DNA of 46,421 bases from Treponemataceae bacterium (GCA_963677895.2 CAXXGJ010000039.1:1-46421), one strand, 5' to 3'. Counted from the stretch's first letter, positions 20,419 through 41,340 are shown. Notes: generated from the sequence alone by a model not told the origin. Program-made: numbers and translations.

Positions 20419-20479
20419 AAAGAGAAAATATATAGAGTAAAGATATTAATAATACAGAAATAAGTATAAAGTAAGAAAA

Positions 20480-20599: not shown

Positions 20600-20662
20600 T
20601 GACGCCTTCGGCGCATAGGAAAAGATATAATAAGATCTAATATTCATTTTAGGAGGATTTCA

Positions 20663-20916: not shown

Positions 20917-20959
20917 AGTCATCGTTATAAAATTTGTTAAATATTATTAGGAGAGACGA

Positions 20960-21367: not shown

Positions 21368-21395
21368 ATGTATTACAGGATAAAGAAGAGAATAA

Positions 21396-21519
21396 TTCTA
21401 ACAATGCTTCAACCCTATAACGCCTTTTGTCATGGTTTTTGCTAGAAGATGACGCAAAAACCACGCCAATCCTTCGCTACGCTCAGGAACAGGCGTTAAG
21501 GGTTAAGCCAATGTTAGAA
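21396..21519 (+). repeat. attC site
   Basis: TTCTAAC...GTTAGAA. Confidence 0.95.
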
Positions 21520-21548
21520 TAGCGCTCCCGCGCAGGAAGAATTAAAAA

Positions 21549-22129
21549 ATGAATGTAAAGCTTGATGAGCATTCAAAAATACTTGTTGTAGGTACTAGTG
21601 GTTCTGGGAAAAGTACATTAGCTAGAAATATTAGTGCTATTCTAAAAATTAAGGATATAGAACTTGATGCATTACATTGGAAAGAGAACTGGCAAGAATC
21701 AAGTAATGATGATTTCAGAGATAAAATAGTACAATCAATAAAAGGTACAAGCGGCTATGTAATTCATGGAAATTACAATAAAGTTAAAGATCTGACGTGG
21801 GGGAATGCTGATACGGTTATATGGCTTGATTATTCTCGTTTTATTGTAATGTGGAGAGTAATAAAAAGAACATTTATTAGAATACTGATACAAGAAGAGT
21901 TATGGGCAGGAAATAAGAGACAATAAAGAAATCATTCTTTGATAAAGATTCCATAATACTGTGGGCATGGAATACATATAGTAAAAGGAAAGCTCAATAT
22001 AAGGAAATGGTTAAAGAGAATCCATATAAGATAAAAACTTATATCGTGTTAAAGAGTCCAAGCGAAGCAAAAATATTTATAGAAGAATTAAAGAAAGGAA
22101 GAATTCTAACACCTGCTTCGACCCTATAA
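21549..22129 (+). CDS. Adenylate kinase-like P-loop protein (FlaR-like), frameshift ~21917
   Basis: VVGTSGSGKSTLA, ELDALHW, GNY, ADTVIWLD. Confidence 0.8.
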
Positions 22130-22235
22130 CGCTATTGTCACGCTTCTTGCGAATTGCTGTAAAGTAGGAGCGACAACGTAAAGTGGAGCAAGAATCGCGC
22201 CAATATACGCGTTAAGGGTCAAGCCAATGTTAGGT
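22104..22235 (+). repeat. attC site (divergent centre)
   Basis: TTCTAAC...GTTAGGT. Confidence 0.9.
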
Positions 22236-22260
22236 CAACAATAAAGAATTAGGAAATTGA

Positions 22261-23033
22261 ATGATATATGTAAAACGAAAAATTATTTTTATTATACATT
22301 TAATATTAATATATTCTGCAATATTTATATCTTGTACAACTAATAAAGCTATAAATATTGAAGATGATATCGATGATTTTTATCAATATCCTAGTTTAGG
22401 ATTAAAAAGCTTTAATAAAGCGGTATTGAATGAAACTAATAAAATAGAAATTAGAAGTAAAATAGGTGACTATAATACAAATGACGAATTATTACAAAAA
22501 ATTTGTTTATATTTAAAAAATGAATATAAAAGCGCAGAAATAGTTGATGGTGCTAATATGAGATATTCAGATGAAATTATAAGAACTAAAACCATAAGGC
22601 ACTGTGCAGAATATGGTGTTATATGGTTAAGTATCCTTAGGCTTTACCAAATTCCATGTATTTATATTCAAGCTATGAAATTGAAGATGCTGAAGAAAAA
22701 GATGGAAAGAGTTGGGGAGGCCATGTTTTTATATGTGCATATATTGATAAGCAATTTATATTAATTGATTCAACACGTGAAAGAAAATATATTATTAAAA
22801 ATTATTATTCAAAAATAATACCTATTGTAATACCGGGATTTGCCAAAAAAGGTTTTGTAGAAATGTTTAGATGCTTTGACCCAGGAAGTATTATATTTAG
22901 ACAATCAGACTATCATAACTACATTGTTAATACGAGAGATTTATATAAACGAAGTATGGAACCAAAAGAATACATTGGAGGGATTAAGCTAATCAAGAAT
23001 GATAGTGTATTAGATTTTAAATATAAATGGTAA
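22261..23033 (+). CDS. Lipoprotein with transglutaminase-like domain, frameshift ~22675
   Basis: FISC lipobox; C (HCAEY), H (GHVF), D (LIDST) triad split over two frames. Confidence 0.65.
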
Positions 23034-23044
23034 TAAAAATTGTG

Positions 23045-23184
23045 ACCTAACAAATGCTTCAACCTTATAAAGCCTTTTGTCATGGTTTTTGCAGAACAAC
23101 AATGCAAAAACCACGCCAATCCCTCGCATCGTTGCTACGCAACGCCGCTCAGGCCAGGCTTTAAAGGTTAAGCCAATGTTAGAT
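23045..23184 (+). repeat. attC site
   Basis: ACCTAAC...GTTAGAT. Confidence 0.95.
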
Positions 23185-23362
23185 TCACTATGAAATGGAG
23201 AAAAAATTTACACTTATTTGTAATGAGAAAATGCTGCGAGAAAAATGTTTCTTTGTCTATTATATAAAATTTATAATTTATTCTTGAAAATTTGCGATTC
23301 AAGAGCAATTTTGATTGTATCTTGTATTTGCTATGAATGTGAAAATGATTCGATGGAAAATT

Positions 23363-23793
23363 ATGTATGATTCTTTCTTTTTAGATATATTATCGATTCA
23401 ACCGACACAATTATACATCAGTGCATTGAAGTATCAAATTGTAAATGAAAAATTATCTAGAGAAAAGTTTTCTCATGAACTCTATAATGCAATTCCGATA
23501 AAGCAGTTTGATGATAAAGTAATATTTATAGATGGGCATACAAGAGCAGCATGGCTCATAAATCATGGAATCTATACAATCAAGGTATATTGGGAAAAAG
23601 AAGAATATAATTGGGATCTATATAGAAGATGTATTAATTGGTGTAAGAAGAAAACATTAATTCAATCGATGATCTTAAGGGAAGAATAGTAAGTTCAGAA
23701 GAATATAAAGAATTATGGAATAAGAGATGCAAAATAGCATTACTAAAAATTCGAAGATCAAGAAAAATAGAACAGAAAAATATAGGAACCTAA
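23363..23793 (+). CDS. ParB/sulfiredoxin-like protein, frameshift ~23645
   Basis: IQPTQLYIS and IDGHTRA motifs. Confidence 0.65.
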
Positions 23794-23912
23794 CAACTGC
23801 TTCAACCCTATAACGCCTTTTGTCATGGTTTTTGCGAGAAGATGACGCAAAAACCACGCCAATCCTGAGCTATCGCTCAGGCTAGGCGTTAAGGGTTAAG
23901 CCAATGTTAGGT
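23788..23912 (+). repeat. attC site
   Basis: ACCTAAC...GTTAGGT. Confidence 0.95.
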
Positions 23913-23955
23913 TGACGCTTCGCGCCATTAGGAATTTTAAAAGAGGCAATTATAA

Positions 23956-24651
23956 ATGAGTTATTCTGTTATATCACCTCTGGGTGAAATTATATTGATC
24001 TCTTCGCAAAAAAGCACTAAAACCAAACAAGCACATCTTCATTTGAGAAATGGAGTATGTTTTAGATGTTCTTTAATTGAAGAAGCATATAGATTACTTT
24101 TAGATGGAATAGAAAACTTGAAGTATGAAGAAACAAAATTAATGGAAGTAAATATATACATAAATTCTATATATATTAATATTCGTGGAATAATTGATAA
24201 TTTGTCTTGGTATTTAAAATATGAGCTAAATATTAGTACAAAGTCTGAAAACCAAATTGACCTTAAGGGTAAAATATTTAGGAAAGAACTTGTAGAAAAA
24301 GGATTTAATATTGATAGAATTCAGAGATTTGATGACTGGTTTTCTGAAATAAAAAAGAAAAGGGATCCAATTGCACATCGATTGCCCTTATATATCCCAT
24401 ATAGGATAATAACTGATAAAAAAGATGCAGAAAATGCACAAAAATTATATAAAGAAGCAGATAATAAATTATGTAATGCGGATAAGACATGGACAAGTTC
24501 TCTTTTTGATGCTAGGAATATTGGAGAATTTAAGCCAACAATTTTAAAAACAGATACTGAAACAGGAGAAATAACAATATATCCAATAGAAAAAAATATT
24601 GAAAGCGATTTAGAAAATATTAAAGATCTTGTTAAAGAAATTCTACAATAA
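23956..24651 (+). CDS. HEPN-domain protein (Cthe_2314-like)
   Basis: RDPIAH (Rx4H); IRGIIDNL helix. Confidence 0.6.
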   Translation: MSYSVISPLGEIILISSQKSTKTKQAHLHLRNGVCFRCSLIEEAYRLLLDGIENLKYEETKLMEVNIYINSIYINIRGIIDNLSWYLKYELNISTKSENQIDLKGKIFRKELVEKGFNIDRIQRFDDWFSEIKKKRDPIAHRLPLYIPYRIITDKKDAENAQKLYKEADNKLCNADKTWTSSLFDARNIGEFKPTILKTDTETGEITIYPIEKNIESDLENIKDLVKEILQ

Positions 24652-24774
24652 CCTAACACATGCTTCAACCTTATAAATCCTTTGGCATGGTTTGTGCGAG
24701 GACGGAAGAGCACAAACCACGCCAAGCTTTCGCTGCGCTCAAGCGCGGATTTAAAGGTTAAGCCAATGTTAGGT
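24651..24774 (+). repeat. attC site
   Basis: ACCTAAC...GTTAGGT. Confidence 0.95.
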
Positions 24775-24884
24775 TGACGCCTTCGGCGCAAAAAGATACA
24801 TGCCAAACTATTTATTGGTAATGTTAGCTTGATGTTTCATGATGGAATAATCAAATAAGTAAATGATGCTGAGTTGGAGTGTCT

Positions 24885-25211
24885 ATGGCAACAGATCTTG
24901 AATTCATACAGTATGTATGTGAACAGATTAGTGAAACTGGTAGAATTCGTTATAGAAAAATGTTTGGTGAATATATGGCATATGTAAATGATAAGCCAAT
25001 ATTATTAGTCTGTAATAACAGTGTATATATAAAGCAACACGCATGTCTCGTTGAGTTGATGAAAGAATCAGAAAAAGGAATTCCCTATACTGGAGCCAAA
25101 GAACATTACATATTAGATATTGATAATAAAGAACTATGTACAGAAGTGATTAAGCTTGTAGAACCACTAGTAAGTATACCTAAGTCGAAAAATAGTAGTA
25201 GGAACCAATAA
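24885..25211 (+). CDS. TfoX N-terminal domain protein
   Basis: YRKMFGEY...LVCNNSVYIK. Confidence 0.85.
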   Translation: MATDLEFIQYVCEQISETGRIRYRKMFGEYMAYVNDKPILLVCNNSVYIKQHACLVELMKESEKGIPYTGAKEHYILDIDNKELCTEVIKLVEPLVSIPKSKNSSRNQ

Positions 25212-25454
25212 ATGGAATTTATACCTATACCATATTTTGGAATGATCATGTGCTTCTTTGTAGCACCAACATTAACCTTTGGTTTTATTTCATATATGAA
25301 AAAGATTAAAGCTGATGTAGAAAAGAAAAAGTATCAAAAAGAAATATTAGAGTTAGAGATACGAAAAGATGAGATACATCTGAAGATGATTGAAGAAGAG
25401 AATAAAAAGTATGACAAAATGATTGGATCAGATATTAGAAAAGAAGAAAAGTAG
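25212..25454 (+). CDS. Small membrane-anchored coiled-coil protein
   Basis: One TM plus charged tail, abuts the TfoX gene. Confidence 0.65.
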   Translation: MEFIPIPYFGMIMCFFVAPTLTFGFISYMKKIKADVEKKKYQKEILELEIRKDEIHLKMIEEENKKYDKMIGSDIRKEEK

Positions 25455-25456
25455 AA

Positions 25457-25581
25457 ACCTAACAAATGCTTCAACCCTATAATGCCTTTTGTCATGGTTT
25501 GTGCAGAACAACAATGCACAAACCACGCCAATCCTTCGCTTCGCTCAGGAGCAGGCGTTAAGGGTTAAGCCAATGTTAGGT
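25457..25581 (+). repeat. attC site
   Basis: ACCTAAC...GTTAGGT. Confidence 0.95.
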
Positions 25582-25613
25582 TGACGCTTCGCGCCAATAA
25601 AAGAGGTGATACC

Positions 25614-25811
25614 ATGATCAAACTTAAGCAATTCCAAAATAGGTTTGAAGCGGAATTCTTCGCTACCATCTTAGATAAAGAAAATATTCCCTACATAATC
25701 CAGTCAGATGATAGCGGAGGACAAAGACCAGCATCATATAGTATAGCTGCAACAATACTCGTTAGCGAAAAAGATTATGAACTGGCTAAATCCTTTCTTT
25801 TAGAACAATGA
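25614..25811 (+). CDS. DUF2007-like protein (copy 1)
   Basis: EAEFFATILDKENIP...VSEKDYELA; GAGGT RBS. Confidence 0.75.
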   Translation: MIKLKQFQNRFEAEFFATILDKENIPYIIQSDDSGGQRPASYSIAATILVSEKDYELAKSFLLEQ

Positions 25812-26249
25812 AAACTAAAGATATTGCTCCTTGTGGGATTAATTGTAGTCTCTGTTTAGCGTATCAAAGGGATAAGAATCATTGTAATGGATGCAATGGA
25901 TCAGATGATCATAAAGCATACCATTGTGTTGAATGTAGAATAAGGAATTGTGAAGAGAAAAAGGGAAATAAAGAACGGTTATGTAGTAAATGTAAGAAGT
26001 ATCCATGTAGAAGAATAAAGGATTTAGAAAAGAGATATACAAATAGATATAATGTGAGCATCTTATAAGAACTTTGAGGATATAAAGATATTAGGAATAA
26101 GAGAATTTATACAGAACGAAAAAGTAAAATGGCAATGTGATAAATGTGGCAAATATTTTTGCATGCATAGAGATATGTGTCTATTCTGTGGAAATCAAAA
26201 TCTAATATATATAGAGAAAAGAAATAACCTAACAAAAGCTTCAACCTGA
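25808..26249 (+). CDS. DUF3795 Cys-rich protein (copy 1), frameshift ~26063
   Basis: APCGINCSLC; the intact paralog at 41737 shows the 1-nt insertion. Confidence 0.8.
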
Positions 26250-26347
26250 CTCGCGTTTGAAAAGCGTAAATAGCTACAATGTTAACCTGATAATGCCCTG
26301 GTAGCGCAGGAGCGCACGACGGCTCGCAGGTTAAGCCAATGTTAGGA
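26227..26347 (+). repeat. attC site, second family
   Basis: ACCTAAC...GTTAGGA. Confidence 0.9.
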
Positions 26348-26490
26348 TGACGCGCTAAACGCGCGCAGGTGCTCTTCGTAATAAGTAGGTGATAATAATA
26401 GTTTATAGCAAAAGTATTAAGTTAAATGCATCGTTGAAATATTTATCGCCTGCTAATTGTGCTTTTACGGCAAATTGATAAATTGAGCAT

Positions 26491-26873
26491 ATGAGAGATA
26501 ATAATATTATGAAAACAACATTACATACCATTAACGATGAAAGAATACTTGAGCTTGAAGACAATGGCTATATTTTAAAGGATGCGCAGGATCTATTAGA
26601 TATTATAGGAGCATACTCTGTACGAACTATCATACTAAGAAAGAAAATATCATACCAGATTTCTTTGATCTAAAGACAAAAGTAGCAGGCGAAATATTAC
26701 AGAAGACAAGTAACTATGGATTAAAGATTGGCATTATAGGAGATTTTACATCTATTAAGAGTGAAAGCTTAAGAGAATTTATATATGAGAGTAATAAGAC
26801 TAAGCAGGTAATATTTAAAGAAAGTAAAGAAGAGATATTAAAGATATTTGGAAAGAATGATAATGAAGAATAG
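26491..26873 (+). CDS. DUF4180-family protein (paralog), frameshift ~26640
   Basis: Shifted frame gives FFDLKTKVAGEILQK...SLREFIYESN. Confidence 0.8.
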
Positions 26874-26895
26874 GGTAAAGATCTTAAAAAAATTA

Positions 26896-27019
26896 TCCTA
26901 ACAAGTGCCTCAACTTATAACGCTCTTTGTCATGGTTTGTGCAGCACAACAATGCACAAACCACGCCAATCCCTCGCTTCGCTCGGGAGCGAGCGTTAAA
27001 GGTTAAGCCAATGTTAGGT
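26896..27019 (+). repeat. attC site
   Basis: TCCTAAC...GTTAGGT. Confidence 0.93.
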
Positions 27020-27134
27020 TGACGCCTTCGGCGCAAAAAGATACATACTAAATAAGTTAGTGTTAATGTTATATTGAAGCTTAGCGTAGAAAAGCCGAAT
27101 AGCTGAAAAGCGGATTTGTTCTGTTGGAGAAAAT

Positions 27135-27650
27135 ATGGATGATACAATAATAAAAACGAGCAGATTAATACTGCGCTACCAAAGAAAATCAGACATAAAG
27201 TTCTTGGTGAACTTGTGGATGGATGAAGAAATGACGAAGTACACTGGAGGGCCAAGAGATAAGCTAAATTTAATTGAAGAGTTTAGAAAGATAGCAGAAG
27301 ATCCAAAGAAAGAAGAATATGATCTTTGGCCAATAGAGCTTAAAAACACCCATGAACTGATAGGACACGCAGGATTTATTCCAAAAGAGATAAAGGGAAA
27401 AGAATATATAGAGCTAAATTATTACATAGATAAAACAAAATGGAAAAAGGGATATGCAAAAGAGATATCAAAGGCATTAGTTGATTATGCCTTTAAGGAA
27501 AAGAAATTAGATAAGGTTATAGCGATTATAAATCCTGAGAATGAAGCATCAAAAGAAGTGGCAAAATCTATAGGAATGAAGTATTGGATGAATGAAGAAA
27601 GATCAGGGAAGATAAAGAGTATTTACATAAAAAGAAAAGAAGAAACCTAA
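27135..27650 (+). CDS. GNAT N-acetyltransferase (RimJ/RimL-like)
   Basis: KTSRLILR, WKKGYAKE, NEAS...IGM. Confidence 0.9.
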   Translation: MDDTIIKTSRLILRYQRKSDIKFLVNLWMDEEMTKYTGGPRDKLNLIEEFRKIAEDPKKEEYDLWPIELKNTHELIGHAGFIPKEIKGKEYIELNYYIDKTKWKKGYAKEISKALVDYAFKEKKLDKVIAIINPENEASKEVAKSIGMKYWMNEERSGKIKSIYIKRKEET

Positions 27651-27769
27651 CACCTGCTTCGACCCTATAACGCCCTTTGTCATGGTTTGTGCAGAACAAC
27701 AATGCACAAACCACGCCAAACCTTCGCTTCGCTCAGGTGCAGGCGTTAAGGGTCAAGCCAATGTTAGGT
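27645..27769 (+). repeat. attC site
   Basis: ACCTAAC...GTTAGGT. Confidence 0.95.
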
Positions 27770-27801
27770 TGACGCTATAGCGCAGATACTAGAAGAACCA
27801 T

Positions 27802-28457
27802 ATGATTCCTGATTTTAAAAGAATTAATCTTGAAATTGATAGAACACATAAGAATGTCCTCGAGTTCATTACAATATGTAAATCTGAAAATTTATATGAT
27901 AGCTCATATGAAGATTGGAACTATAAAGATGTTATTACACATTTGACACGATGGATATCATTCTCTGCCAACAAGCTTGAAAGTATTAAAAATCAAATCC
28001 CTTTTAAAGATGTAGATGACTTTCGAAAAGCAAATAGAGAATGGTATGCGGTTGATAATGATAAAGAACTCAAGATAGTAGAGTCAGGATTTGAAAATGC
28101 AATTGAGAAGTATAAAGCAGTAATAGCAACCTATAGTAAAGAAGATCTTATTAAGAATGATCTACCATTAGGTTTTAAAATGGATCTTTGGCGATATATG
28201 ATAATGGATGGATCAACACACCCAAATGGGCATTTACTCTATCATTACTTGAAACGAAGGAAATACTTGAACTTTATAAAAGTTTTAAGAAGAGACGGAA
28301 GATATATTTTCTTTGTTTTCTAAGGGGAATAATAAAGTATATAGTTTTGTAGAGTATGAAGATAAAGGATGGAATGGTTAAAGAGAGAATAAAAGAATTA
28401 AGTAAAGCATATAAAGATAAAGATATACTTAAGAAAGTAATAGAAGCTAATCAGTAA
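27802..28457 (+). CDS. DinB/ClbS-like four-helix bundle protein, 3' frameshifts
   Basis: WNYKDVITHL..W and HPNGH. Confidence 0.6.
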
Positions 28458-28469
28458 AATAGGGCAGAC

Positions 28470-28594
28470 ACCTAACACATGCTTCAACCCTATAACGCCC
28501 TTTGTCATGGTTTTTGCGAGAAGATAACGCAAAAACCACGCCAATCCTTCGCTTCGCTCAGGAACAGGCGTTAAGGGTTAAGCCAATGTTAGAT
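28470..28594 (+). repeat. attC site
   Basis: ACCTAAC...GTTAGAT. Confidence 0.95.
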
Positions 28595-28641
28595 TGACGC
28601 TTCGCGCAGAAGAAATTTAACATAATATATAGAGGTAGTGA

Positions 28642-30027
28642 ATGAAAACATTATCAATTGGTGTTTCTATCAAGCACTCTGAGGTTACAAATAGTTATTT
28701 TTCTTCTTCATTTTCATTTCTTGATTATGATCTTGTGCTACTTGATTTCACAAATATTCTAGATGAGTACAATTCAGATTATTCCTATTCAACTTATATG
28801 GGATATAAATGTTTGTCTGATGACGATTCAGTAAAAATTAGTAATGATATAGAACGAAGAAAGATAGAGATAAAAGATATGCTACAAAAATGGGAAGAAC
28901 TTAATCGTTTTTTCTTCTATGCCAATTTATTGCTATTATGCAACCGGGAAAAAAGAACATTCTGGTACTGGAAGAAACCAAAAAACTACTCGAATAGTAA
29001 GCAAGCTAGATATAATTAAAGCGCTAAATATACAAATGAATACTATTCCGGCAACAGGAACAAATATTGAATATGAGAATGACAAGATATTTATGCCATT
29101 CTTTAAAAAGCTAAAAGAAATATTTTATTACTCAGCTTACTATGAAAGTAGTACTGGTACTTGTATTGCAAAAATTAAAGGAACCAATAAAACGGTTTCT
29201 GAGTAATACTAAACATAATAATGGTTACATTATATGCTTGCCTTCGATGTATAAAGAAAGAAACTATAAATTAAAAAGTGATTATACAAAGAACAGTATA
29301 CTATTTATCAATGCTATATTCGAGTTAATGAAAGAGCTTAATTATTCTGAAGGAGATTATTCATTACCTGATTGGGCGATAGGGTATATTTTGCCAAGCG
29401 AGAAAGAAATAAGAGAAAAAATAGAAAAGGGACAAATTAAGCTAGACTTATTATTAAGTAAACAAAGTAAACTAAAAAGACAAAAAGAAGAAATTGAATT
29501 AAGAAAAAATTTGATTTGTGGGTCAGGGAAAGCATTAGAGAATCAGTGTGTTAAAATCCTTGAAAAAATTGGATTTGAAATATGTGAAAGTGAAAATGTG
29601 AATCGAGAAGATCTTATAATAAAATGGAAGCAGATAGTATATATTATCGAAATAAAGGGGCTAACAAGTAGTGCAGCAGAAAAAAATGCTGCTCAACTAG
29701 AAAAATGGGTAAGTGAGTATCAGATAAAGCATGATATAAAAACCAAAGCCAATTTTGTTAGTAAATGCTTTTAGGAATGATCCGCTAGAAAATAGAAAAG
29801 ATCCATCTTTTCCTGACCAGATGATAAAATATTGTGTTAGCAGAGAGCATTGTCTTTTAACAACAACACAATTGCTTTGTAGTTATATAGATATAGTAGT
29901 AAATAAAAATGGATCAATTGATATGCTAGCAAAAAAAATGAATTTATGTCGTGGAATATTAGAAGACTATCAAAAATTTGAAGACTATATAACAATTGAA
30001 AAGAAAAGTGAAATAAAAGAAACCTGA
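28642..30027 (+). CDS. Protein with C-terminal restriction-endonuclease-like domain, split into four frames
   Basis: Overlapping ORFs 28642, 28919, 29142 and 29755; LE...GF...REDLII...IEIKG...AQLEKW motif. Confidence 0.65.
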
Positions 30028-31099
30028 ATTCAAGGTCGAAGTGCAACGGAGAGGCGACGTTGTAGAATAACTCGAAAGGGGTTTTATAACCATGCCTCTT
30101 ACGGGGTCTCGTATTGAGTTTATAGGCAATACTGTCACATTCAGTCTGGGTAACACGTTTCATACAGGATCCTTTAGGAAGATATTGGCGAATGAGGCCA
30201 TTCGTGTTTTCATTGGTTCCTCGTTCCCATGAATGGTAAGGATTAGCGAAGTAGCAGGTAACAGGGAAGAGATATTCGAGATCTTTATAAGCATGGAACT
30301 CGGTACCATTATCAAAAGTGATTGAAACGAATTTCTTTCCGTGTTCACGAATTGCGGCAACACAAGCAGCATTAACTTGGAGCGTCGTTCTCGCTTTAAC
30401 CTTTTTGATAATAAGGAAGCCGGTTTTACGCTCAACTAAGGTAACAATACAATGGTGGCGATCCTTACCCATAACAGTATCGCCTTCCCAGTGGCCCAAG
30501 GAAGCTCGAGAATCAATTTCGAAAGGGCGATCGGCGATCATACGCTTTCCAGGTAAGACACCGCGGGAATCATGCGAGTTGTAGCGTTTACGCCGGCGCT
30601 TAGGGACGATACGAAGATGCTTAAAGAGCGTTCCTCCTTTCTTTTTATCATAGAGCAGGTATAAGTATATGGTTTCATGACTTATAGAAAAGCCAAAGCA
30701 CTCTTTGATGATATTTGAAGCTTGTTCCGGGCTGTAGTCAGCTTTGATAAGGAGCAGAACAATACGCCATTGATCAGGAGAGAATTGAGAACCTCGTCGA
30801 TTACGTTTTCGTCGAGCCGTAGCGTAACTGTGAGCGATTTCAGGAGAATAGGTATTGAGCTTAGGTCTTCTGTTTCGGTGTAATTCACGGCATATAGTAG
30901 ATTTATCTCTACCAAGCTCTTTAGCAATAGTACTAAGAGAGCAGTGGGTTCGCAAAAGGGCGTGAATAGTGTATCGTTCTTGCTGGGAGAGTTGCTGATA
31001 GCTCAACGGTGGATTCCTTTTCTTGGCAGAATGAGGGTGCACTTAGTATCGTGACTCTCCCTCTTTTCGCCTACACCGTTGCACTTACTATTTGAACCC
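30026..31099 (-). mobile_element. IS30-family insertion sequence
   Basis: Imperfect 24-bp IRs 30026-30049 / 31076-31099 sharing AAGTGCAACGG; 9-bp direct repeat AAGAAACCT at 30017-30025 and 31100-31108. Confidence 0.93.
30030..31006 (-). CDS. IS30-family transposase
   Basis: HTH (LGRDKSTICRELHRN), GHWEGDT, TFDNGTEF, PYHSWERGTNENTNGLIRQYLPKG; likely TTG start at 31006; 3' end approximate. Confidence 0.93.
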
Positions 31100-31104
31100 A
31101 AGAA

Positions 31105-31227
31105 ACCTAACAACTGCTTCAACCTTATAAATCCTTTGTCATGGTTTGTGCAGAAATCCCAAGTACAAACCACGCCAAGCCTTCGCTTCGCTCAGGCGCG
31201 GATTTAAAGGTTAAGCCAATGTTAGGA
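31105..31227 (+). repeat. attC site
   Basis: ACCTAAC...GTTAGGA. Confidence 0.95.
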
Positions 31228-31258
31228 TGACGCCTTCGGCGCAAATCAACGAGAATCT

Positions 31259-32020
31259 ATGAAAACAAATCAATTACAGCTAAAAGAATACTTGATCTCA
31301 CAATACGAGATTAAGTTCAGTGGTTGGGATTTCTCCTATCTCGATGGAAAAATGGAAGAATCACCATTACCATGGAATTATAGAAATATAATCACCGAGT
31401 ATATGAAGACTTCATCATGTATGCTTGATATGGGAACTGGCGGTGGAGAATTCTTGGATTCATTAGAAGAATTACCAAAACTTGTATATGCTACCGAAGG
31501 TTATGCACCTAATATTCCTATTGCACAAAATAGATTAAAGCATAAAAATATTGAAGTTAAAGTCATAGACGAGACCAACATTCTTCCTTTTGATAATGTA
31601 TCCTTTGACGTAGTTATAAACCGCCACGAGGAGTATATTGTCGATGAGGTAAAAAGGGTTTTAAAAGAAAACGGATACTTCGTAACGCAACAAGTAGGCG
31701 GTATGAATAATATTGATATCAATTCAACATTAGGTGCAATTCCGCCACATTATTATAATTGGTGTTTGCTAAAGACAATTGAAGATTTAACAAATGCTGG
31801 ATTTAAAATTGTAATCAGTGATGAAACGATAGGATATTCAAGGTTCTATGACATTGGAAGTATCGTTTACTATTTAAAGTGTATACCTTGGCAGATTGAT
31901 GATTTTTGTGTTGAAAAGTACTTTGATAGATTATATTTGCTTGATGAGTATATAAAAGAACATAAATATAAAGATTTCATTAATCATAGATTTTATGTTG
32001 TTGCACAGAGAATACGTTAG
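31259..32020 (+). CDS. Class I SAM-dependent methyltransferase
   Basis: LDMGTGGGE, LPFDNVSFDVV. Confidence 0.9.
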   Translation: MKTNQLQLKEYLISQYEIKFSGWDFSYLDGKMEESPLPWNYRNIITEYMKTSSCMLDMGTGGGEFLDSLEELPKLVYATEGYAPNIPIAQNRLKHKNIEVKVIDETNILPFDNVSFDVVINRHEEYIVDEVKRVLKENGYFVTQQVGGMNNIDINSTLGAIPPHYYNWCLLKTIEDLTNAGFKIVISDETIGYSRFYDIGSIVYYLKCIPWQIDDFCVEKYFDRLYLLDEYIKEHKYKDFINHRFYVVAQRIR

Positions 32021-32041
32021 GATACTACGGTAAAAAGTATA

Positions 32042-32166
32042 TCCTAACAAATGCTTCAACCCTATAACGCCTTTTGTCATGGTTTTTGCTTGAAGATTAC
32101 GCAAAAACCACGCCAATCCTTCGCTTCGCTCAGGAGCAGGCGTTAAGGGTTAAGCCAATGTTGGGT
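32042..32166 (+). repeat. attC site
   Basis: TCCTAAC...GTTGGGT. Confidence 0.95.
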
Positions 32167-32202
32167 GGACAAAAAATCTATAAAAGCGAGAAATAAACAT
32201 TT

Positions 32203-33162
32203 ATGGCAAGTATTGAAAAGTTGCATATCCCATATGGAGCTAATTCTGAAGGAGAATTAGTATCACCTTCTGATGCAGAAAAAAATAAAGAATACTTTTG
32301 TCCAACTTGTAAAGAGAAACTTATATTAAGAAAAGGTGATATCAAAATACCACATTACTCGCATAATAATAATACTAACTGTTCAAATGAGACAATATTA
32401 CATAAAATTGCTAAAGGGTTAATTATTCAAGCAATAAAAGAATTTAAAAAAGAGAAGGGAAGTCAACCAGAAATAAAAAGAAATTGCTTAATATGTGATT
32501 CAGAGCTTATGCAAAAGTTACCAGAAAAAGTAACACATGCAGTAGAAGAGATAAGATTGAAATCTGGCTTTATTGTTGATATTGGTTTATATAATGAAGA
32601 TACTTTAGAAGCTGCTATTGAAATATATGTAACACATAGAGTAGATCAAGAAAAAATGGGTTGCATTGAAATTCCGTGGATTGAGCTAAACGCAAAAGAT
32701 CTTATTAGTGACAAGATTACTTGGATACCAATTTATGATAACTTTAAAAGTTTTGTATGTAAAGAATGCAGAAATAGATTAAATAAATATAATGTAAAAA
32801 TTATGGAACTATCTGATCGCTATAAATTAAATATAAATACTGAAAAATATCATTGTGGAATAGTAAACTGTTGGAAGTGTGGAAATGAAATTCCGGTATT
32901 TGATATTGGTATTGAGAATGAAGATTATTATCCAAAAACTGTAATGAGAAAATTCTCTAATACTAAACGTGAAGAGTATCTAGCTAATACTTGCCCTATT
33001 TGTAAAAGTCTTCAAGGTGAATTCTTTTTATATAGTGAACCAGATGGACCTTTTTTTGCATTAGATTATATAAATAAAAAGAATTCTAACTTATCTGATG
33101 ATATGTTAATAAATCTAGCTATTGCTAATAAATATTATGATGAAAAAAGTTATGAAGACTAG
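32203..33162 (+). CDS. CoiA-like zinc-ribbon nuclease
   Basis: YFCPTC..L..RKG....HYSH, E..LH..AK, VDI...AIEIYVTH, further CxxC pairs. Confidence 0.75.
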   Translation: MASIEKLHIPYGANSEGELVSPSDAEKNKEYFCPTCKEKLILRKGDIKIPHYSHNNNTNCSNETILHKIAKGLIIQAIKEFKKEKGSQPEIKRNCLICDSELMQKLPEKVTHAVEEIRLKSGFIVDIGLYNEDTLEAAIEIYVTHRVDQEKMGCIEIPWIELNAKDLISDKITWIPIYDNFKSFVCKECRNRLNKYNVKIMELSDRYKLNINTEKYHCGIVNCWKCGNEIPVFDIGIENEDYYPKTVMRKFSNTKREEYLANTCPICKSLQGEFFLYSEPDGPFFALDYINKKNSNLSDDMLINLAIANKYYDEKSYED

Positions 33163-33175
33163 TAATTCATATGCC

Positions 33176-33299
33176 ACCCAACACATGCTTCAACCTTATA
33201 AATCCTTTGTCATGGTTTGTGCAGAAATCCCATGCACAAACCACGCCAAGCCTTCGCAGTAGCTCAGGCGCGGATTTAAAGGTTAAGCCAATGTTATGC
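33176..33299 (+). repeat. attC site
   Basis: ACCCAAC...GTTATGC. Confidence 0.95.
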
Positions 33300-33414
33300 G
33301 GACTCGCGCATTCGCGCGAGCTAAGTTATTATAATAGAAGTATATAAAAAAGTATAATGTTGTCCTTGACATTACACAATATAATGTGTAAGCTATAAAC
33401 ATAAGGAGGACATT

Positions 33415-33612
33415 ATGGCTACAAACCTCGCTATAGATGATAGATTGCTCACCAAAGCACTTGAAATTGGCGGTTATAAATCAAAAAAGGACACTGTTAA
33501 TGCTGCACTTGATGAATTTATCAAAAGAAGAAAAGCAAAAGAGCTAATAGATATTTTTGGTACAATAGAATATGACGCTTCTTATGATTACAAGAAAATG
33601 AGATCAAGATGA
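33415..33612 (+). CDS. vapB: VapB antitoxin (copy 2)
   Basis: Protein identical to 3615..3812. Confidence 0.9.
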   Translation: MATNLAIDDRLLTKALEIGGYKSKKDTVNAALDEFIKRRKAKELIDIFGTIEYDASYDYKKMRSR

Positions 33613-34022
33613 AACGAGTATTAGTAGATACTTCGGTATGGTCTCTTGCACTAAGAAAAAAGGAAAGAACTGAGGAAGAACAAAAGATAGTAAGTCATCT
33701 ATCAAAATTGATAAGTAACCTTACTGTTGTTCTTATAGGTCCAATACGACAAGAAATTTTATCAGGAATCTCAACGAAAGAACGATTTGAAGTACTTAAA
33801 GAAAAGATATCAATATTCGATGATCATACAATACATACCCATGATTATGAACTTGCTGCAGAATACTTTAATGAATGTAGAAAACATGGGATACAAGGAT
33901 CTCATATAGATTACCTAATATGCTCAGTTGCCACAAATAATGATATGTCAATATTTACATTGGATAATGATTTTCAGCTCTATAAAAAGCATATAAGAAT
34001 TAAGCTAGAAAAATACGCATAA
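33609..34022 (+). CDS. vapC: VapC PIN toxin (copy 2)
   Basis: One visible amino-acid difference (V/E) from 3809..4222. Confidence 0.92.
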   Translation: MKRVLVDTSVWSLALRKKERTEEEQKIVSHLSKLISNLTVVLIGPIRQEILSGISTKERFEVLKEKISIFDDHTIHTHDYELAAEYFNECRKHGIQGSHIDYLICSVATNNDMSIFTLDNDFQLYKKHIRIKLEKYA

Positions 34023-34141
34023 CAAAAGCTTCAACCCTATAACGCCTTTTGTCGTGGTTTTTGCGAGAAGATGACGCAAAAACCACGCCAATCCTTCGCT
34101 TCGCTCAGGAACAGGCGTTAAGGGTTAAGCCAATGTTAGAA
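34017..34141 (+). repeat. attC site
   Basis: GCATAAC...GTTAGAA. Confidence 0.95.
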
Positions 34142-34186
34142 GGACGCCTTCGGCGCCAGAAAAAAATAAATTCTTTCGAGGCAACC

Positions 34187-34738
34187 ATGCACTTTAAAAA
34201 GATGATAGGAGAGAAATGTTATCTTTCTCCTATAGACCTAGAAGATACTAATCTCTATGCAGAATGGCTCAACTCAGAAGAAGTGTTTCAGTATCTCTTA
34301 GTAGGCACAAACATAGTATCTTATGAATCCGAAAAAGAAATATTACTTAGGCTATCAAAAGAACATGTATATGGAATCATTGAGAATGAGAATAATACGC
34401 TGATAGGTAATGTAGGGCTTGTAAGTGTGAATCATATTCATAAGACAGCAGAAGTGGGAATATTCATAGGTAGAAAAGAATACTGGGGAAAAGGGTATGG
34501 AACTGAAGCCTTGAAGCTGCTTATAGACTATTCATTCAGAGTATTAGGAATTGAAAACATAATGTTAAAAGTATTTGATTATAATGTGCGAGCTAAAAAA
34601 TGTTATGAGAAAGTAGGATTTAAGAAGATAGGTGAAAGACGAAAGGCTCATTACTATAATAATGAAAGGCATAATGATATCTATATGGATATAATAAAAG
34701 AAGATTTTTATAAAGAAGACAAGAAAAGAAGCTTCTAA
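34187..34738 (+). CDS. GNAT N-acetyltransferase (RimJ/RimL-like)
   Basis: AEVGIFIG...YWGKGYGTEA, N.RA..CYEKVGF; start reset to ATG 34187. Confidence 0.9.
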   Translation: MHFKKMIGEKCYLSPIDLEDTNLYAEWLNSEEVFQYLLVGTNIVSYESEKEILLRLSKEHVYGIIENENNTLIGNVGLVSVNHIHKTAEVGIFIGRKEYWGKGYGTEALKLLIDYSFRVLGIENIMLKVFDYNVRAKKCYEKVGFKKIGERRKAHYYNNERHNDIYMDIIKEDFYKEDKKRSF

Positions 34739-34857
34739 CAAAAGCTTCAACCCTATAACGCCTTTTGTCATGGTTTTTGCTAGAAGATGACGCAAAAACC
34801 ACGCCAATCCTTCGCTTCGCTCAGGAACAGGCGTTAAGAGTTAAGCCAATGTTAGCT
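34733..34857 (+). repeat. attC site
   Basis: TTCTAAC...GTTAGCT. Confidence 0.95.
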
Positions 34858-34909
34858 GGACGCTTCGCGCAAAGTATTAGAATATTTAGCTTTTCCTAAG
34901 GATTAATAG

Positions 34910-35689
34910 ATGTTGGTGATAAAAAGCATTAAAGCAGGAACTACCTGTTGTACTTTTACAACTGTACCAAAAAATTTCTTAGTAAACTTACTCAGTATAG
35001 ATTCCGAACCAGCATTATTAAGTGAAATTGAAATATATAATAACGAGACTTCAACTTTATCGTATTTAAATGGATGCTATTTTTTAGAAACTACATCTGG
35101 TTTAGTAAATTCAGTTATAGATTTTTTTAGATTTATTCGATTATTAGAGCTAAAAAGAATGCACTATATCGAATTTATATTGCAGTCAATTACTGATTAT
35201 CAAAAAGGCGTTATTTATAAAAGATCAAGGAATATTACAGCAATGGGTACTATTTATAAGTTTGATCAAAAAGAAAAAGAAGAATATATAAATTATTCTA
35301 TATCAAATTTAGGAATACATGATGAAAAACTTGAAAAAGCACTAATATACTATAACCATGCTTTGTTTTTATTGGATGAAAATTGTAAAAGCATTGAAGA
35401 AAGTCAAAAGCAATTCTATATTTCAGAAGCTATTCTTAATTTTTGGAAATCTGTTACAATTATTATCGGTGAAGGTAAAAAGTGGAAAAGTGGATTATAT
35501 AATATCGGAATTGTAGAACAGGAACTTATAGAACGAACTCAAAAAATATTTCATACTAGAAATAAAAAAGATGTAGCTCATAGTAGCTTTGAAACAATAA
35601 ACTTAACAAATGAGGTTTCAAATATTGAAACTACTACAAGAATAATTATTGAAAAATATATCTGTTCGATAAAAAATAAAAACAGCTAA
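34910..35689 (+). CDS. Hypothetical protein with C-terminal HEPN-like motif
   Basis: ALIYY...LNFWKS...RNKKDVAH. Confidence 0.5.
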   Translation: MLVIKSIKAGTTCCTFTTVPKNFLVNLLSIDSEPALLSEIEIYNNETSTLSYLNGCYFLETTSGLVNSVIDFFRFIRLLELKRMHYIEFILQSITDYQKGVIYKRSRNITAMGTIYKFDQKEKEEYINYSISNLGIHDEKLEKALIYYNHALFLLDENCKSIEESQKQFYISEAILNFWKSVTIIIGEGKKWKSGLYNIGIVEQELIERTQKIFHTRNKKDVAHSSFETINLTNEVSNIETTTRIIIEKYICSIKNKNS

Positions 35690-35808
35690 TAAGTGCTTCA
35701 ACCCTATAACGCCTTTTGTCATGGTTTTTGCGAGAAGATCACGCAAAAACCACGCCAATCCTTCGCTTCGCTCAGGAACAGGCGTTAAGGGTTAAGCTAA
35801 TGTTAGGC
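35684..35808 (+). repeat. attC site with mutated R'' box (AAT)
   Basis: AGCTAAT...GTTAGGC. Confidence 0.9.
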
Positions 35809-35836
35809 TCATTAATATTACGAAAGGGACTTCAGC

Positions 35837-36307
35837 ATGAGTATTACTGTCGTTGAATCTAAAGATGTGAACATAATCACCATGCTCAATAAAACTGTTC
35901 AGAATCTTCATCATGAGAAATATCCAGAATACTTTAAAGCATATAATTATGAGAACATAAGAAAAGCAATTGAAGAACTACTTGTTCAAGATAATTGGTA
36001 TTCTTATGTAGCATATGATGATAAAAAGGCTGTTGGATATATCATATTTTATGTAAAAGAATTTAAAGAGAATCCTTTTCGGTATTCATATAAAGGAATC
36101 CATATAGATCAGTTAAGTGTGATTAAAGAGTATCAAAAAAGAGGTATAGGATCCTTATTAATGAAAAAAGCTGAAGACAAAGGAAAAGCAGATAAAGTAA
36201 GTCAACTAGAATTAACATATTGGGAGAAGAACACCGAAGCCAAAGATTTTTATAGGAAGAAGAAATTTGAAGAAGGAATGCATTTTGTTATTAAGCAAAA
36301 AATATAA
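35837..36307 (+). CDS. GNAT N-acetyltransferase
   Basis: IDQLSV...YQKRGIGSLLM, N.EA..FY. Confidence 0.9.
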   Translation: MSITVVESKDVNIITMLNKTVQNLHHEKYPEYFKAYNYENIRKAIEELLVQDNWYSYVAYDDKKAVGYIIFYVKEFKENPFRYSYKGIHIDQLSVIKEYQKRGIGSLLMKKAEDKGKADKVSQLELTYWEKNTEAKDFYRKKKFEEGMHFVIKQKI

Positions 36308-36339
36308 AGAAGTAATTTATTATATGAAAGAAAATAAGA

Positions 36340-36464
36340 GCCTAACAAATGCTTCAACCCTATAACGCCTTTTGTCATGGTTTTTGCTCGAAGATGACGC
36401 AAAAACCACGCCAATCCTTCGCTTCGCTCAGGAGCAGGCGTTAAGGGTTATGCCAATGTTAGGT
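36340..36464 (+). repeat. attC site
   Basis: GCCTAAC...GTTAGGT. Confidence 0.95.
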
Positions 36465-36494
36465 GGACGCTACGCGCAGTAATAGAGGAATAAA

Positions 36495-37211
36495 ATGAGA
36501 ATAGCAGTACTATCAGATATCCATGCAAATGTACTTGCCTTGGAAGCTGCCTATTCTGATATAAAAAAGCAAAAAACTGACATAACTGTTTTTCTCGGTG
36601 ATCTCGTTATGACAGGACCGAGACCAAGTGAAGCATTCAATCTTCTTAAAGAAATTAATCCATTTATCTGGCTTCAAGGAAATACTGATAATTGGCTAGA
36701 AGAGATCAACAATGAATTTGTACCAAAAAATGATAATGAGATCTTTTGTAAAGTATTACGAGATTATTCTTTTCAGTATTTGAATACTATCAACATAGAA
36801 GAAATAATTAGTAAGCCGATCAAGCAAGAATTTGTTTATGGGGACACACTAATTACATTTTGCCATGGTTCTCCAACATTATTTTCTCAAGCTATTCTGA
36901 TGAATACTGATAAAGAAAAAATGGATACTATAATATCTAGTACCAATGCAAGTATTATTTGTTGTGGCCATACTCATATAAAAACGAACATAAGGTATAA
37001 AAGCATATCAATAATTAATTTTGGATCAATAAGCATACCTGGCAATGATTATAGTAAAATGGCAAGATATGGTATTATAGAAATAGATGATAATGATTAT
37101 GTTAGCTTTGAATTTAAAGAAGTATGGTTTGATATAGATATGTTATTTAGAGATATGAAAGAAAGAAAATTCCCAGGGTTGGATAGACTTAAAGAGAAAT
37201 ATTCATATTAA
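36495..37211 (+). CDS. Metallophosphoesterase
   Basis: SDIHAN, LGDLV, GNTD, HGSP, GHTH. Confidence 0.92.
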   Translation: MRIAVLSDIHANVLALEAAYSDIKKQKTDITVFLGDLVMTGPRPSEAFNLLKEINPFIWLQGNTDNWLEEINNEFVPKNDNEIFCKVLRDYSFQYLNTINIEEIISKPIKQEFVYGDTLITFCHGSPTLFSQAILMNTDKEKMDTIISSTNASIICCGHTHIKTNIRYKSISIINFGSISIPGNDYSKMARYGIIEIDDNDYVSFEFKEVWFDIDMLFRDMKERKFPGLDRLKEKYSY

Positions 37212-37220
37212 TAGCCATTC

Positions 37221-37345
37221 ACCTAACAAATGCTTCAACCCTATAACGCTATTTGTCATGGTTTTTGCTAGAAGATGACGCAAAAACCACGCCAATCCTT
37301 CGCTTCGCTCAGGAACAGGCGTTAAGGGTTAAGCCAATGTTAGGT
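37221..37345 (+). repeat. attC site
   Basis: ACCTAAC...GTTAGGT. Confidence 0.95.
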
Positions 37346-37376
37346 TGATTAACGGCAAAGGATGTAAGTTGTAGCT

Positions 37377-38207
37377 ATGAATGTAATTATTACTGGTGCG
37401 AATCGTGGGATCGGTAAACAAACAACAATAGCGCTTTCTAAACTCGGTTATACGATCATTATGGCATGCAGAGATATTGATGCTGCAACTCTTGTTTGTA
37501 ATGAGATAAAAGAAGCATCGGGGAATAGTAATATCTTCGTGATGAAGCTTGATTTAGCTAGTTCAAAATCGATTCAAGCCTTTGTAGATGATTATTTTAA
37601 AAAGTTCAAAGAGATACATATACTTATTAATAATGCAGGTGTCTCTAAAAACAGTCATGAAATAACAGAAGATGGATTTGAAATAAATGTTGGAACAAAC
37701 TACTTCGGGACCTATCTGTTAACTAGTTTATTGCTACCCTTATTCCCAAAGAATGCAGATAATAGAATAATCATTGTTACATCGAATATATTTAAAATTG
37801 GTAATTTTGCTATTGATAAAATAAATAAGTACCATTGGTTCAAAGCGTATGCTGTATCCAAGTATATGTTACTTTTGTATTCTTTATGGCTATCAAAGCA
37901 ACTACGTAATAGAGGGATAAAAGTAAACGCTGTTCATCCTGGAATTGTAAAGACATCAATTATGTATACCAATAAATGGTATGATGCAGTAATTAAGGTA
38001 CTCCTAGCTCCATTTATTGTTACTGTTGAAGAAGGTGCTAAAGGGAATGTCTATCTTGCTACGGCAGAAAGAATTGGCACTGGGAAGTATTATGAGAAAA
38101 GCAAAATAGTAAATATTTCTAAAAGGTATGATACAGACCACAAGATAAGTGAGCTTATTGATTATAGTAAACAATATATGAAAAAAGTGACTTCAAAAAA
38201 GAAATAA
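37377..38207 (+). CDS. SDR-family oxidoreductase
   Basis: TGANRGIG, NNAG, YAVSK, HPG. Confidence 0.93.
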   Translation: MNVIITGANRGIGKQTTIALSKLGYTIIMACRDIDAATLVCNEIKEASGNSNIFVMKLDLASSKSIQAFVDDYFKKFKEIHILINNAGVSKNSHEITEDGFEINVGTNYFGTYLLTSLLLPLFPKNADNRIIIVTSNIFKIGNFAIDKINKYHWFKAYAVSKYMLLLYSLWLSKQLRNRGIKVNAVHPGIVKTSIMYTNKWYDAVIKVLLAPFIVTVEEGAKGNVYLATAERIGTGKYYEKSKIVNISKRYDTDHKISELIDYSKQYMKKVTSKKK

Positions 38208-38211
38208 AACA

Positions 38212-38336
38212 ACCTAACAGATACTTCAACCTTATAACGATCTTTGTCATGGTTTGTGCAGAACAACAATGCACAAACCACGCCAATCCCTTGCTTCGCT
38301 CGGGAACGAGCATTAAAGGTTAAGCCAACGTTAGGC
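38212..38336 (+). repeat. attC site
   Basis: ACCTAAC...GTTAGGC. Confidence 0.93.
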
Positions 38337-38429
38337 CGACGCCTTCGGCGCATCAATAGTGTGAATTCTAGCTCAATACTGTATTAATTCCTATTCATAT
38401 AAAGATATCGAAAATTTAAGGAGTGCATT

Positions 38430-41338: not shown

Positions 41339-41340
41339 CC

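What the first reader, a model, noticed from the sequence alone, without database searches (positions are those of the whole stretch)
30017..31111. IS30-family element inserted in the attC R'' box, preserving both gene and attC
Seen: the IS (30026-31099) is flanked by the 9-bp direct repeat AAGAAACCT, so the pre-insertion site reads AAGAAACCT^AAC, inside the ACCTAAC inverse core. The right copy regenerates a full attC. On the left, the IS end supplies GA so that ACC-TAA becomes ACC-TGA and the protein still ends ...KET*. The IS now sits inside the cassette and would move with it. Established: attC targeting is described for IS1111-attC elements and group IIC-attC introns, and canonical IS30 makes 2-3 bp duplications. 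Inference: this may be an attC-targeting IS30 subgroup with long duplications.
Basis: partly seen in the sequence, partly recalled or inferred. Interest (0 to 1): 0.75.

Follow-up and report, generated by a model that had tools for sequence, protein, structure and literature searches.

The report
Jumping gene targeting integron attC sites
A small IS30-type jumping gene sits at one exact spot, in one orientation, at the edge of an integron recombination site (attC), and most of its relatives in other bacteria, including the named Vibrio elements ISVa6 and ISVvu6, do the same, which points to a lineage specialised in invading gene-cassette arrays.

Summary
The element and its position are real; the 9-bp duplication is not. 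The IS spans 30023-31102 (1080 bp) with an ordinary 3-bp duplication (AAA). Near-identical copies keep these ends at other sites, and three empty/filled allele pairs in another genome show 3 bp. The targeting idea holds strongly. Of 141 distinct sites of relatives (about 44-98% protein identity), 110 have the attC R'' AAC at the same offset outside the left end; 1 of 14 outgroup sites does, and it is not an attC. Insertions use the R'' side (72) rather than the mirror R' side (2), antisense to the array. All 9 copies in one 5-Mb genome sit at attC. Targeters fall in one clade of 132 transposases (support 0.92) that includes Vibrio ISVa6/ISVvu6 and carries distinctive residues on the helix retroviral integrases use to touch target DNA. 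The right end usually supplies a stop codon in the register of the R'' TAA, but non-targeting relatives can too, and this cassette gene is already frameshifted. About one site in six is off-target. Ten literature searches (eight on novelty) showed no report. This scan noted the same phenomenon earlier on other DNA (e1-7819093).

The parts
30023..31102 (-). IS30-family insertion sequence, 1080 bp, antisense to the cassette array
   Evidence: IR register; same ends in 7 near-identical copies; contig of run X2 starts at 30023
30023..30047 (+). Right inverted repeat (IRR), facing the cassette gene; its nt 3-5 are TGA, in the register of the R'' TAA
31078..31102 (-). Left inverted repeat (IRL), always the end next to attC
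30020..30022 (+). Target duplication AAA, left copy
31103..31105 (+). Target duplication AAA, right copy; its last base is the first base of R''
30023..31006 (-). DDE transposase (HTH_38 + RNase H core; D176, D232, E266 counted from 31006; start codon uncertain, TTG at 31006 or GTG at 31042). The frame has no stop inside the IS and runs on to 29837 in the flank.
31105..31227 (+). Intact attC: R'' 31105-31111, L'' 31117-31124, L' 31209-31215, R' 31221-31227
28642..30027 (+). Cassette gene of unknown function in four frame-shifted pieces; last piece stops at the IRR-supplied TGA
   Evidence: (no Pfam hit for any of the 4 pieces)
28470..28594 (+). Upstream attC; its R' GTT (28588) opens the cassette that carries the IS
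256..45985 (+). Cassette array filling the contig: 49 attC-like right ends, 38 with 7 of 7 L-box pairs; no intI over the cut-off in the assembly

Best explanation
This is one copy of a broad IS30-family lineage that has specialised on integron attC sites. (1) Shown: it inserts with a 3-bp duplication whose last base is the first base of R'' (NNR|YYTAAC), left end toward attC, transposase antisense to the array. The attC stays whole, so the IS lies between gene and attC and would travel with the cassette (inferred). (2) Inferred from the family: it moves by copy-out-paste-in through a circle whose joined ends attack duplex target DNA three bases apart. (3) Inferred, about 55% on its own: the transposase itself picks the site by reading the left arm of attC, meaning the YYTAAC core plus features further in that differ between the R'' arm and its mirror R' arm. 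Lineage-specific residues after the second catalytic Asp (T235, H238, Y240, E244) are the candidate contacts. Weaker look-alikes give the minority of off-target insertions. (4) Shown as a pattern, cause unknown: IRR nt 3-5 are a stop codon in the register of the R'' TAA, so genes that ended in R'' keep their C-terminus. (5) Inferred: because copies are co-oriented, recombination or IS-mediated deletion between them removes cassette blocks and leaves mismatched flanks.
For: AAC at offset 6 in 110 of 141 distinct non-outgroup sites; 0-2 of 141 at the neighbouring offsets 4, 5, 7 and 8; 1 of 14 outgroup sites, plus 0 of 5 further distant elements (read by eye). L-box pairing of at least 6 of 7 in 72 of 121 sites with long flanks, against 67 of 3040 other AAC triplets in the same flanks. 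R'' side 72, R' side 2, neither 19 of 93, with a scorer that sorts the window's own attCs correctly. G061: 9 of 9 copies at attC within a 137-site array downstream of intI; 7 of 9 have 3-bp duplications and 3 have empty alleles. G064 5 of 5 (one offset by 2 nt) and G065 3 of 3. Vibrio ISVa6/ISVvu6: 10 of 13 sites and 5 of 7 scorable plasmid copies (8 fetched). Clade of 132 proteins, FastTree support 0.924. DNGTEFH invariant in 99 of 99 aligned proteins; T235 in 4 and H238 in 2 of 20 outgroup proteins. T235 is D+3, aligned with the integrase DNG-x position; HIV-1 S119 and PFV A188 contact target bases (PMC4005685, abstract). intI present in 9 of 10 genomes tested.
Against: No experiment; the recognition step is inferred. 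31 of 141 sites lack AAC at offset 6, and 6 of these have true 3-bp duplications, 5 of them with no attC-like arm. Only 37 of 101 core sites show a duplication (21 of 40 genome records, 13 of 51 metagenome contigs, 3 of 10 Vibrio); I attribute this to chimeric assembly and later rearrangement but showed a hybrid flank only in G061 (2 of 9). The DNGTEFH motif is also in two proteins just outside the clade (L073, whose site is not an attC, and L213, whose left end was not found). Searches returned the best 80 hits per collection, so the sample is not random, and kin are not independent. The attC scorer is home-made. The window's own genome holds one full copy and no intI over cut-off (92.8% complete).
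Confidence: 0.8

Rival explanations
1. Same targeting, but the cue is structure or replication: the transposase, or a host factor such as the sliding clamp, recognises the folded attC (bottom-strand hairpin or cruciform with its extrahelical base) and inserts at its base.
For: The YYTAAC core is equally present at the mirror R' end (table), yet 72 of 74 assignable sites are on the R'' side. Target attCs range from about 60 to 165 bp and differ widely in sequence. Two sites keep the L'' register with a non-AAC core (L044, L060). An IS30 transposase peptide binds the beta clamp (PMC3971601, passages). IS1111-attC elements and IIC-attC introns take the same antisense orientation (PMC3001079, passages).
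Against: A 3-bp duplication needs duplex DNA at the cut. Off-target sites lean toward A at positions 7-8 (16 of 31 each). Some core-register sites have no recognisable partner arm (for example L025, L084, L138). The R'' arm has its own conserved bases that the mirror arm lacks, so sequence could explain the asymmetry.
Confidence: 0.3
2. IR mimicry: the attC left arm is taken for the element's own right end, and insertion runs by the IS30 IR-targeting pathway, which gives only IRL-IRR junctions.
For: IS30 IR-targeting is strictly oriented and goes by single-strand transfer (PMC9333248, passages). The first 5-6 nt of R'' resemble the IRR tip (94th percentile of background), the gap is 3 nt, and many sites lack a duplication.
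Against: Beyond nt 6 the attC arm does not resemble IRR (63rd percentile; whole-arm mean score -12.7 against +28 for true IRRs). ISPpu17-type elements have the same CCTGAA tip and do not sit at attC.
Confidence: 0.08
3. IntI bound at attC recruits or positions the transpososome.
For: intI found in 9 of 10 genomes tested; the insertion abuts the R box where IntI binds (established knowledge, recalled).
Against: Copies also sit at attC on plasmids and in this contig, where no intI was found; a 3-bp duplication is a DDE product, not a tyrosine-recombinase product.
Confidence: 0.07
4. No targeting: insertion is near random and selection keeps copies in dispensable arrays, or one old insertion was spread by cassette movement.
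For: About 23 of 141 sites are off-target; in G061 all 9 copies lie in the distal 46 of 137 attC sites.
Against: Selection does not explain one nucleotide register and one orientation. The duplicated triplets and flanking genes differ between copies (7 different triplets in G061). Outgroup IS30 elements are scattered.
Confidence: 0.03
5. One reading: the element is 30026-31099 and makes long (9-bp) duplications.
For: The 9-bp direct repeat is in the sequence.
Against: Terminal bases are conserved at other sites; 0 of 130 sites show a repeat above 5 bp; empty alleles show 3 bp.
Confidence: 0.01

Closest known systems
IS30 family (IS30, ISApl1, IS1655; nearest named members ISVa6 and ISVvu6 by RefSeq product name)
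   Same: DDE transposase matching NF033563; about 25-bp imperfect terminal IRs; about 1.1 kb; short duplication. ISVa6/ISVvu6 (48-49% identical) fall inside the same clade and sit at Vibrio attC in the same register.
   Different: IS30 uses nearly palindromic hot spots or its own IRs and makes 2-bp repeats (PMC9333248, passages). This lineage uses an asymmetric site, one orientation and 3 bp, and lacks the N-terminal extension of IS30 (query residue 6 aligns well inside the 383-aa IS30 CDS). The paper that names ISVa6 does not link it to attC in the passages seen (PMC4572688).
IS1111-attC group (ISPa21, ISPst6; IS110/IS1111 family)
   Same: [quoted passage not shown]
   Different: Unrelated enzyme and chemistry: IS110-family recombinase with subterminal IRs and no target duplication (recalled), against a DDE transposase with terminal IRs and a 3-bp duplication here.
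Group IIC-attC introns (S.ma.I2)
   Same: Insert at attC, oriented opposite to cassette genes, separating the gene from its attC (PMC3001079, passages).
   Different: Retroelements with reverse transcriptase that insert into the bottom strand; no IRs or DDE enzyme.
IS1630-type IS30 elements with long variable duplications (recalled, no call)
   Same: IS30 family members reported to prefer inverted-repeat targets.
   Different: Long variable duplications were tested for here and not found.
ISPpu17, ISAs2 and Acinetobacter IS30-family elements (41-42% identical)
   Same: Nearest outgroup; similar IR tips and, where both flanks match, 3-bp duplications.
   Different: Not at attC in the copies seen; carry K/R-E-F-A/S in place of T-E-F-H after DNG.

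Membership tests
IS30 family | Single ORF for an IS30-type DDE transposase with N-terminal HTH | tested here: met
   NF033563 277.6 bits against cut-off 80; HTH_38 and rve; D176/D232/E266 invariant in 99 sequences; model matches IstA and retroviral integrases
IS30 family | Imperfect terminal inverted repeats of about 20-30 bp | tested here: met
   30023-30047 and 31078-31102 share TTCAA and AAGTGCAAC in register
IS30 family | Length about 1.0-1.25 kb (range recalled) | tested here: met
   1080 bp
IS30 family | Short (2-3 bp) target duplication | tested here: met
   AAA/AAA here; 3 bp in 43 of 130 relative sites; 3 empty/filled allele pairs
IS30 family | Transposition through an IR-IR circle or dimer junction | not testable with these tools
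   Only contigs were available; no IS circle joint among the joints shown, and 65 joints were not shown
IS1111-attC group | IS110-family (DEDD) transposase | tested here: not met
   Protein is an IS30 DDE enzyme
IS1111-attC group | No target duplication, subterminal IRs (recalled) | tested here: not met
   Terminal IRs and 3-bp duplication
IS1111-attC group | Oriented insertion at a fixed place near the 5' end of attC (works like) | tested here: met
   110 of 141 sites in one register; R'' side 72, R' side 2
Group IIC-attC introns | Group II intron RNA with reverse transcriptase ORF | tested here: not met
   No RT domain in the element's ORF; RNA families were not searched
Long-duplication IS30 elements (IS1630 type, recalled) | Long, variable target duplications | tested here: not met
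   No exact end repeat above 5 bp in 130 sites
Integron attC site | R''-L''...L'-R' boxes, extrahelical base in L'', bottom-strand hairpin | tested here: met
   31105-31227, 7 of 7 L pairs, hairpin -28.2 kcal/mol with DNA parameters
Integron attC site | Recombined by an IntI integrase | not testable with these tools
   No intI over cut-off in this assembly

The most novel reading that the evidence does not exclude
A widespread, undescribed clade of classical DDE transposases has evolved single-nucleotide, strand-specific recognition of attC without any accessory protein or guide RNA. Its right end is under selection to hand back the cassette gene's stop codon (TAG 58, TGA 47, TAA 1 of 119 right ends, against 3 of 119 left ends). 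Its co-oriented copies are a second engine, independent of IntI, that deletes and reshuffles blocks of chromosomal integron arrays, Vibrio superintegrons included. In one sub-lineage the transposase gets a fixed C-terminus only in the circular intermediate.
Probability: 0.4. Interest if true: 0.85.

Novelty: new variant of a known kind. Interest (0 to 1): 0.72.

Why it matters
The known attC invaders use a recombinase (IS1111-attC) or retrohoming (group IIC-attC introns). A plain 320-residue DDE transposase that reaches the same site with nucleotide precision, across Spirochaetota, beta- and gamma-Proteobacteria, Acidobacteria and others, would be a third, chemically independent route. It makes an open question testable: what feature of attC can proteins other than IntI read? 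It names candidate residues and gives a tractable member pair (ISVa6-like against ISPpu17-like). It also bears on array evolution: an IS that rides inside cassettes, spares gene and attC, and builds co-oriented repeats can spread with cassettes and cause block deletions. ISVa6 and ISVvu6 are already annotated in Vibrio records, so the behaviour can be checked in many public genomes.

Tried and rejected
9-bp duplication: rejected. Sequencing-error frameshift as the cause of the missing transposase stop: rejected, since 7 relatives align to the window copy with no internal gap and read through too. Full IR mimicry by attC: only the tip matches. Stop-codon supply as a special adaptation: not shown, because 3 of 7 outgroup right ends also carry a stop there, and only 7 of 35 duplication-verified sites (one not an attC) had a gene of 60+ codons ending at the R'' stop. 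Other copies in the own genome: one short left-end remnant on C4 and two distant fragments, uninformative. Viral contigs gave 2 weak hits only; the 20 phage hits listed were distant, 36% identity at best. No solved IS30 structure: the sequence search found only weak integrase hits and the fold search IstA and integrases. Sequencing runs: no run held half of the words, all were contigs, so no read-level test of circles or of the empty window site; X1 pieces agree with the cassette gene without gaps across 28887-29205 but at depth 2, and X1 may be the source. Literature on novelty: (listings); passages read in PMC9333248, PMC2262945, PMC3971601, PMC9229058, PMC8527097, PMC4572688, PMC11322120, PMC3001079; abstract of PMC4005685. 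None linked IS30 to attC in what I saw. The Tetu and Holmes 2008 paper is not held; ISfinder could not be consulted; no supplements were opened, and supplements or subscription papers may bear on novelty.

Full report
Observation. The window is one whole contig (C39) of a 3.5-Mb, 39-contig genome and is a cassette array: 49 attC-like right ends by a two-mismatch pattern, 38 with perfect L''/L' pairing, all on the + strand. No integron integrase passes the TIGR02249 cut-off in the assembly, which is 92.8% complete. The minus-strand ORF at 29837-31042 is an IS30-family transposase (NF033563, E 1.2e-82). The 9-bp repeat is at 30017-30025 and 31100-31108 as stated.

Boundaries. Both readings give the same empty site, so only other copies can decide. 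Seven metagenomic copies at 81.6-95.2% nucleotide identity keep the same tips beside different flanks; three of them (L104, L108, L109) show 3-bp duplications, and six of seven sit at an attC. In genome G061, 7 of 9 copies have 3-bp duplications and three have empty alleles of the same cassette end in the same array, each differing by the IS plus three bases. A contig of run X2 starts exactly at 30023. Among 130 non-outgroup sites with both flanks the longest exact repeat was 3 bp in 43, 4 bp in 1, 5 bp in 1, and none longer. The IS is therefore 30023-31102 with duplication AAA.

Targeting. I fetched 79 loci from genomes (best 80 of 113 relatives), 80 from metagenomes (best 80 of 460), 23 from the window's genome and its kin, 25 from five of the genomes, and plasmid-collection records. 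Loci with no detectable left end, under 20 nt of flank, or under 30% identity were dropped, identical flanks were merged and the window copy was left out, leaving 155 sites. AAC lies at offset 6 outside IRL in 100 of 128 environmental sites, 10 of 13 Vibrio sites and 1 of 14 outgroup sites; that one has no attC partner arm. Neighbouring offsets 4, 5, 7 and 8 hold 0-2 of 141. The consensus is NNR|YMTAAC followed by the L'' box. Of 121 sites with at least 140 nt of flank, 72 pair at least 6 of 7 L-box bases; 67 of 3040 other AAC triplets in the same flanks do. The scorer is home-made and misses some evident attCs. Placing the extrahelical base assigns 72 sites to the R'' side, 2 to the R' side and 19 to neither, so the transposase gene is antisense to the array. 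In G061 (5.0 Mb) the search found 9 copies; all are at attC sites of a 137-site array downstream of an intI. G064 gave 5 of 5 (one shifted by 2 nt), G065 3 of 3, and G062 one copy at a non-attC site with the same core. Vibrio ISVa6/ISVvu6-type copies use the same register; of 8 more plasmid copies fetched, 7 were scorable and 5 sit at an attC.

Counter-evidence. 31 of 141 sites lack AAC at offset 6. Eight of them still score above the 99th background percentile on an L''-region matrix at shifts of up to 2 nt, one (L069) probably by chance. Six have true 3-bp duplications, so real off-target insertion occurs. Four of five genomes checked for such copies do carry an intI. Only 37 of 101 core-register sites with both flanks show a duplication. 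Collapsed repeats in short-read assemblies explain part of this (13 of 51 against 21 of 40), but the Vibrio records give 3 of 10. In G061 two copies have a left flank from one cassette and a right flank from another, as expected after deletion between co-oriented copies. That is an inference.

Lineage. A FastTree tree of 152 distinct transposases (171 loci with at least 270 aligned residues), rooted on IS30, puts all attC-associated elements in one clade of 132 (support 0.924), from ISVa6/ISVvu6 to the window copy; ISPpu17, ISAs2, ISApl1, ISPsy38 and Acinetobacter elements lie outside. Five more distant elements from two of the genomes are not at attC. The clade has DNG-T-E-F-H-x-Y where outgroups mostly have K/R-E-F/M-A-x-H; DNGTEFH is invariant in the 99-sequence alignment. 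Two proteins just outside the clade share it (L073, L213). The AlphaFold model (pLDDT 85.8) matches IstA and retroviral integrase cores, and the profile aligns DnGteF with the integrase DNG-x-x-F motif. HIV-1 S119 and PFV A188 contact target bases and set base preference (PMC4005685, abstract); that S119 is three residues after the second catalytic Asp is recalled. T235 holds that position. This is a lead, not a test.

Mechanism. IS30 moves by copy-out-paste-in, inserting either at near-palindromic hot spots with a 2-bp repeat or next to its own IRs in fixed orientation (PMC9333248, passages). A 3-bp repeat implies staggered attack on duplex DNA. The hexamer alone cannot be the cue: it is as good at the mirror R' end and occurs 305 times in the 180-kb G061 region. 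Full IR mimicry fails beyond nt 6. I favour readout of the attC left arm by the transposase (about 55%), with recognition of folded attC or replication-linked loading as the main rival (about 30%).

Gene and attC preservation. The attC is intact by construction. IRR nt 3-5 are a stop codon in 106 of 119 distinct in-group end pairs (TAG 58, TGA 47, TAA 1) against 3 of 119 at IRL, in the register of the R'' TAA. Two annotated Vibrio genes end on that IRR stop. A frame of 60+ codons runs into it at 24 of 87 target sites, against 8 and 7 in the other two frames. But 3 of 7 outgroup right ends also carry a stop, and only 4 of 38 window attCs use the R'' TAA as the gene's stop, so adaptation is not shown. 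The window's own cassette gene is in four frame-shifted pieces with no Pfam match.

Known or new. It meets the tested IS30-family features and works like IS1111-attC elements and IIC-attC introns, which also insert near the 5' end of attC and antisense (PMC3001079, passages), but it belongs to neither. Eight searches on novelty and the passages read showed no IS30-attC link; the library lacks most subscription papers and ISfinder was not available. These are unchecked notes, not support.

Verdict. Observation partly confirmed, interpretation partly supported: an attC-targeting IS30 clade, with ordinary 3-bp duplications. New variant of a known kind; interest 0.72.

Noticed in passing
window 30023-31006 (-); L024-L026, L103-L181 subset: In 44 of 139 distinct IS sequences the transposase frame has no stop inside the element and ends flush with the IRR tip, so the C-terminus depends on flanking DNA (0-93 extra residues; 61 here). 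In a modelled circle with a 3-nt spacer all 44 stop 5-6 codons into IRL. The conserved T at IRL nt 16 may instead serve a junction promoter -10 box.
   Followed up: partly
G061:C1 683-823 kb (L216-L224): All 9 IS copies lie in the distal 46 of 137 attC sites, none in the 91 nearest intI. The array is also full of a cassette of about 390 bp repeated dozens of times.
   Followed up: no
L025 / G062:C1 near 2.13 Mb: An off-target copy sits in the same register beside a TTTAAC that is not an attC; the flank resembles a dif/Xer-type site (recalled consensus) and a tyrosine-recombinase match lies about 1 kb away.
   Followed up: no
window 28642-30027 and other cassettes (10271-10997, 19086-19678, 22261-23033, 42187-43793): Several cassette genes appear as overlapping ORF pairs, either real decay or indel errors in the assembly; the IS itself has no indel.
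   Followed up: partly
G000:C4 13237-13415: A 179-bp remnant of the same IS (88% identical) with most of IRL deleted, about 2 kb from a lone attC; single attC-like sites also occur on C2, C6, C13 and C30.
   Followed up: partly
window 3547-3846 / 33347-33646; 25569-25868 / 41498-41797; 11946-12163 / 26640-26857: Duplicated cassettes within the array at 95%, 90% and 81% identity.
   Followed up: no
W03 (NZ_CP016323.1, 40.8 kb): A record labelled as a plasmid holds 8 matches to the transposase, those seen all at Vibrio attC sites; it may be a superintegron fragment.
   Followed up: no
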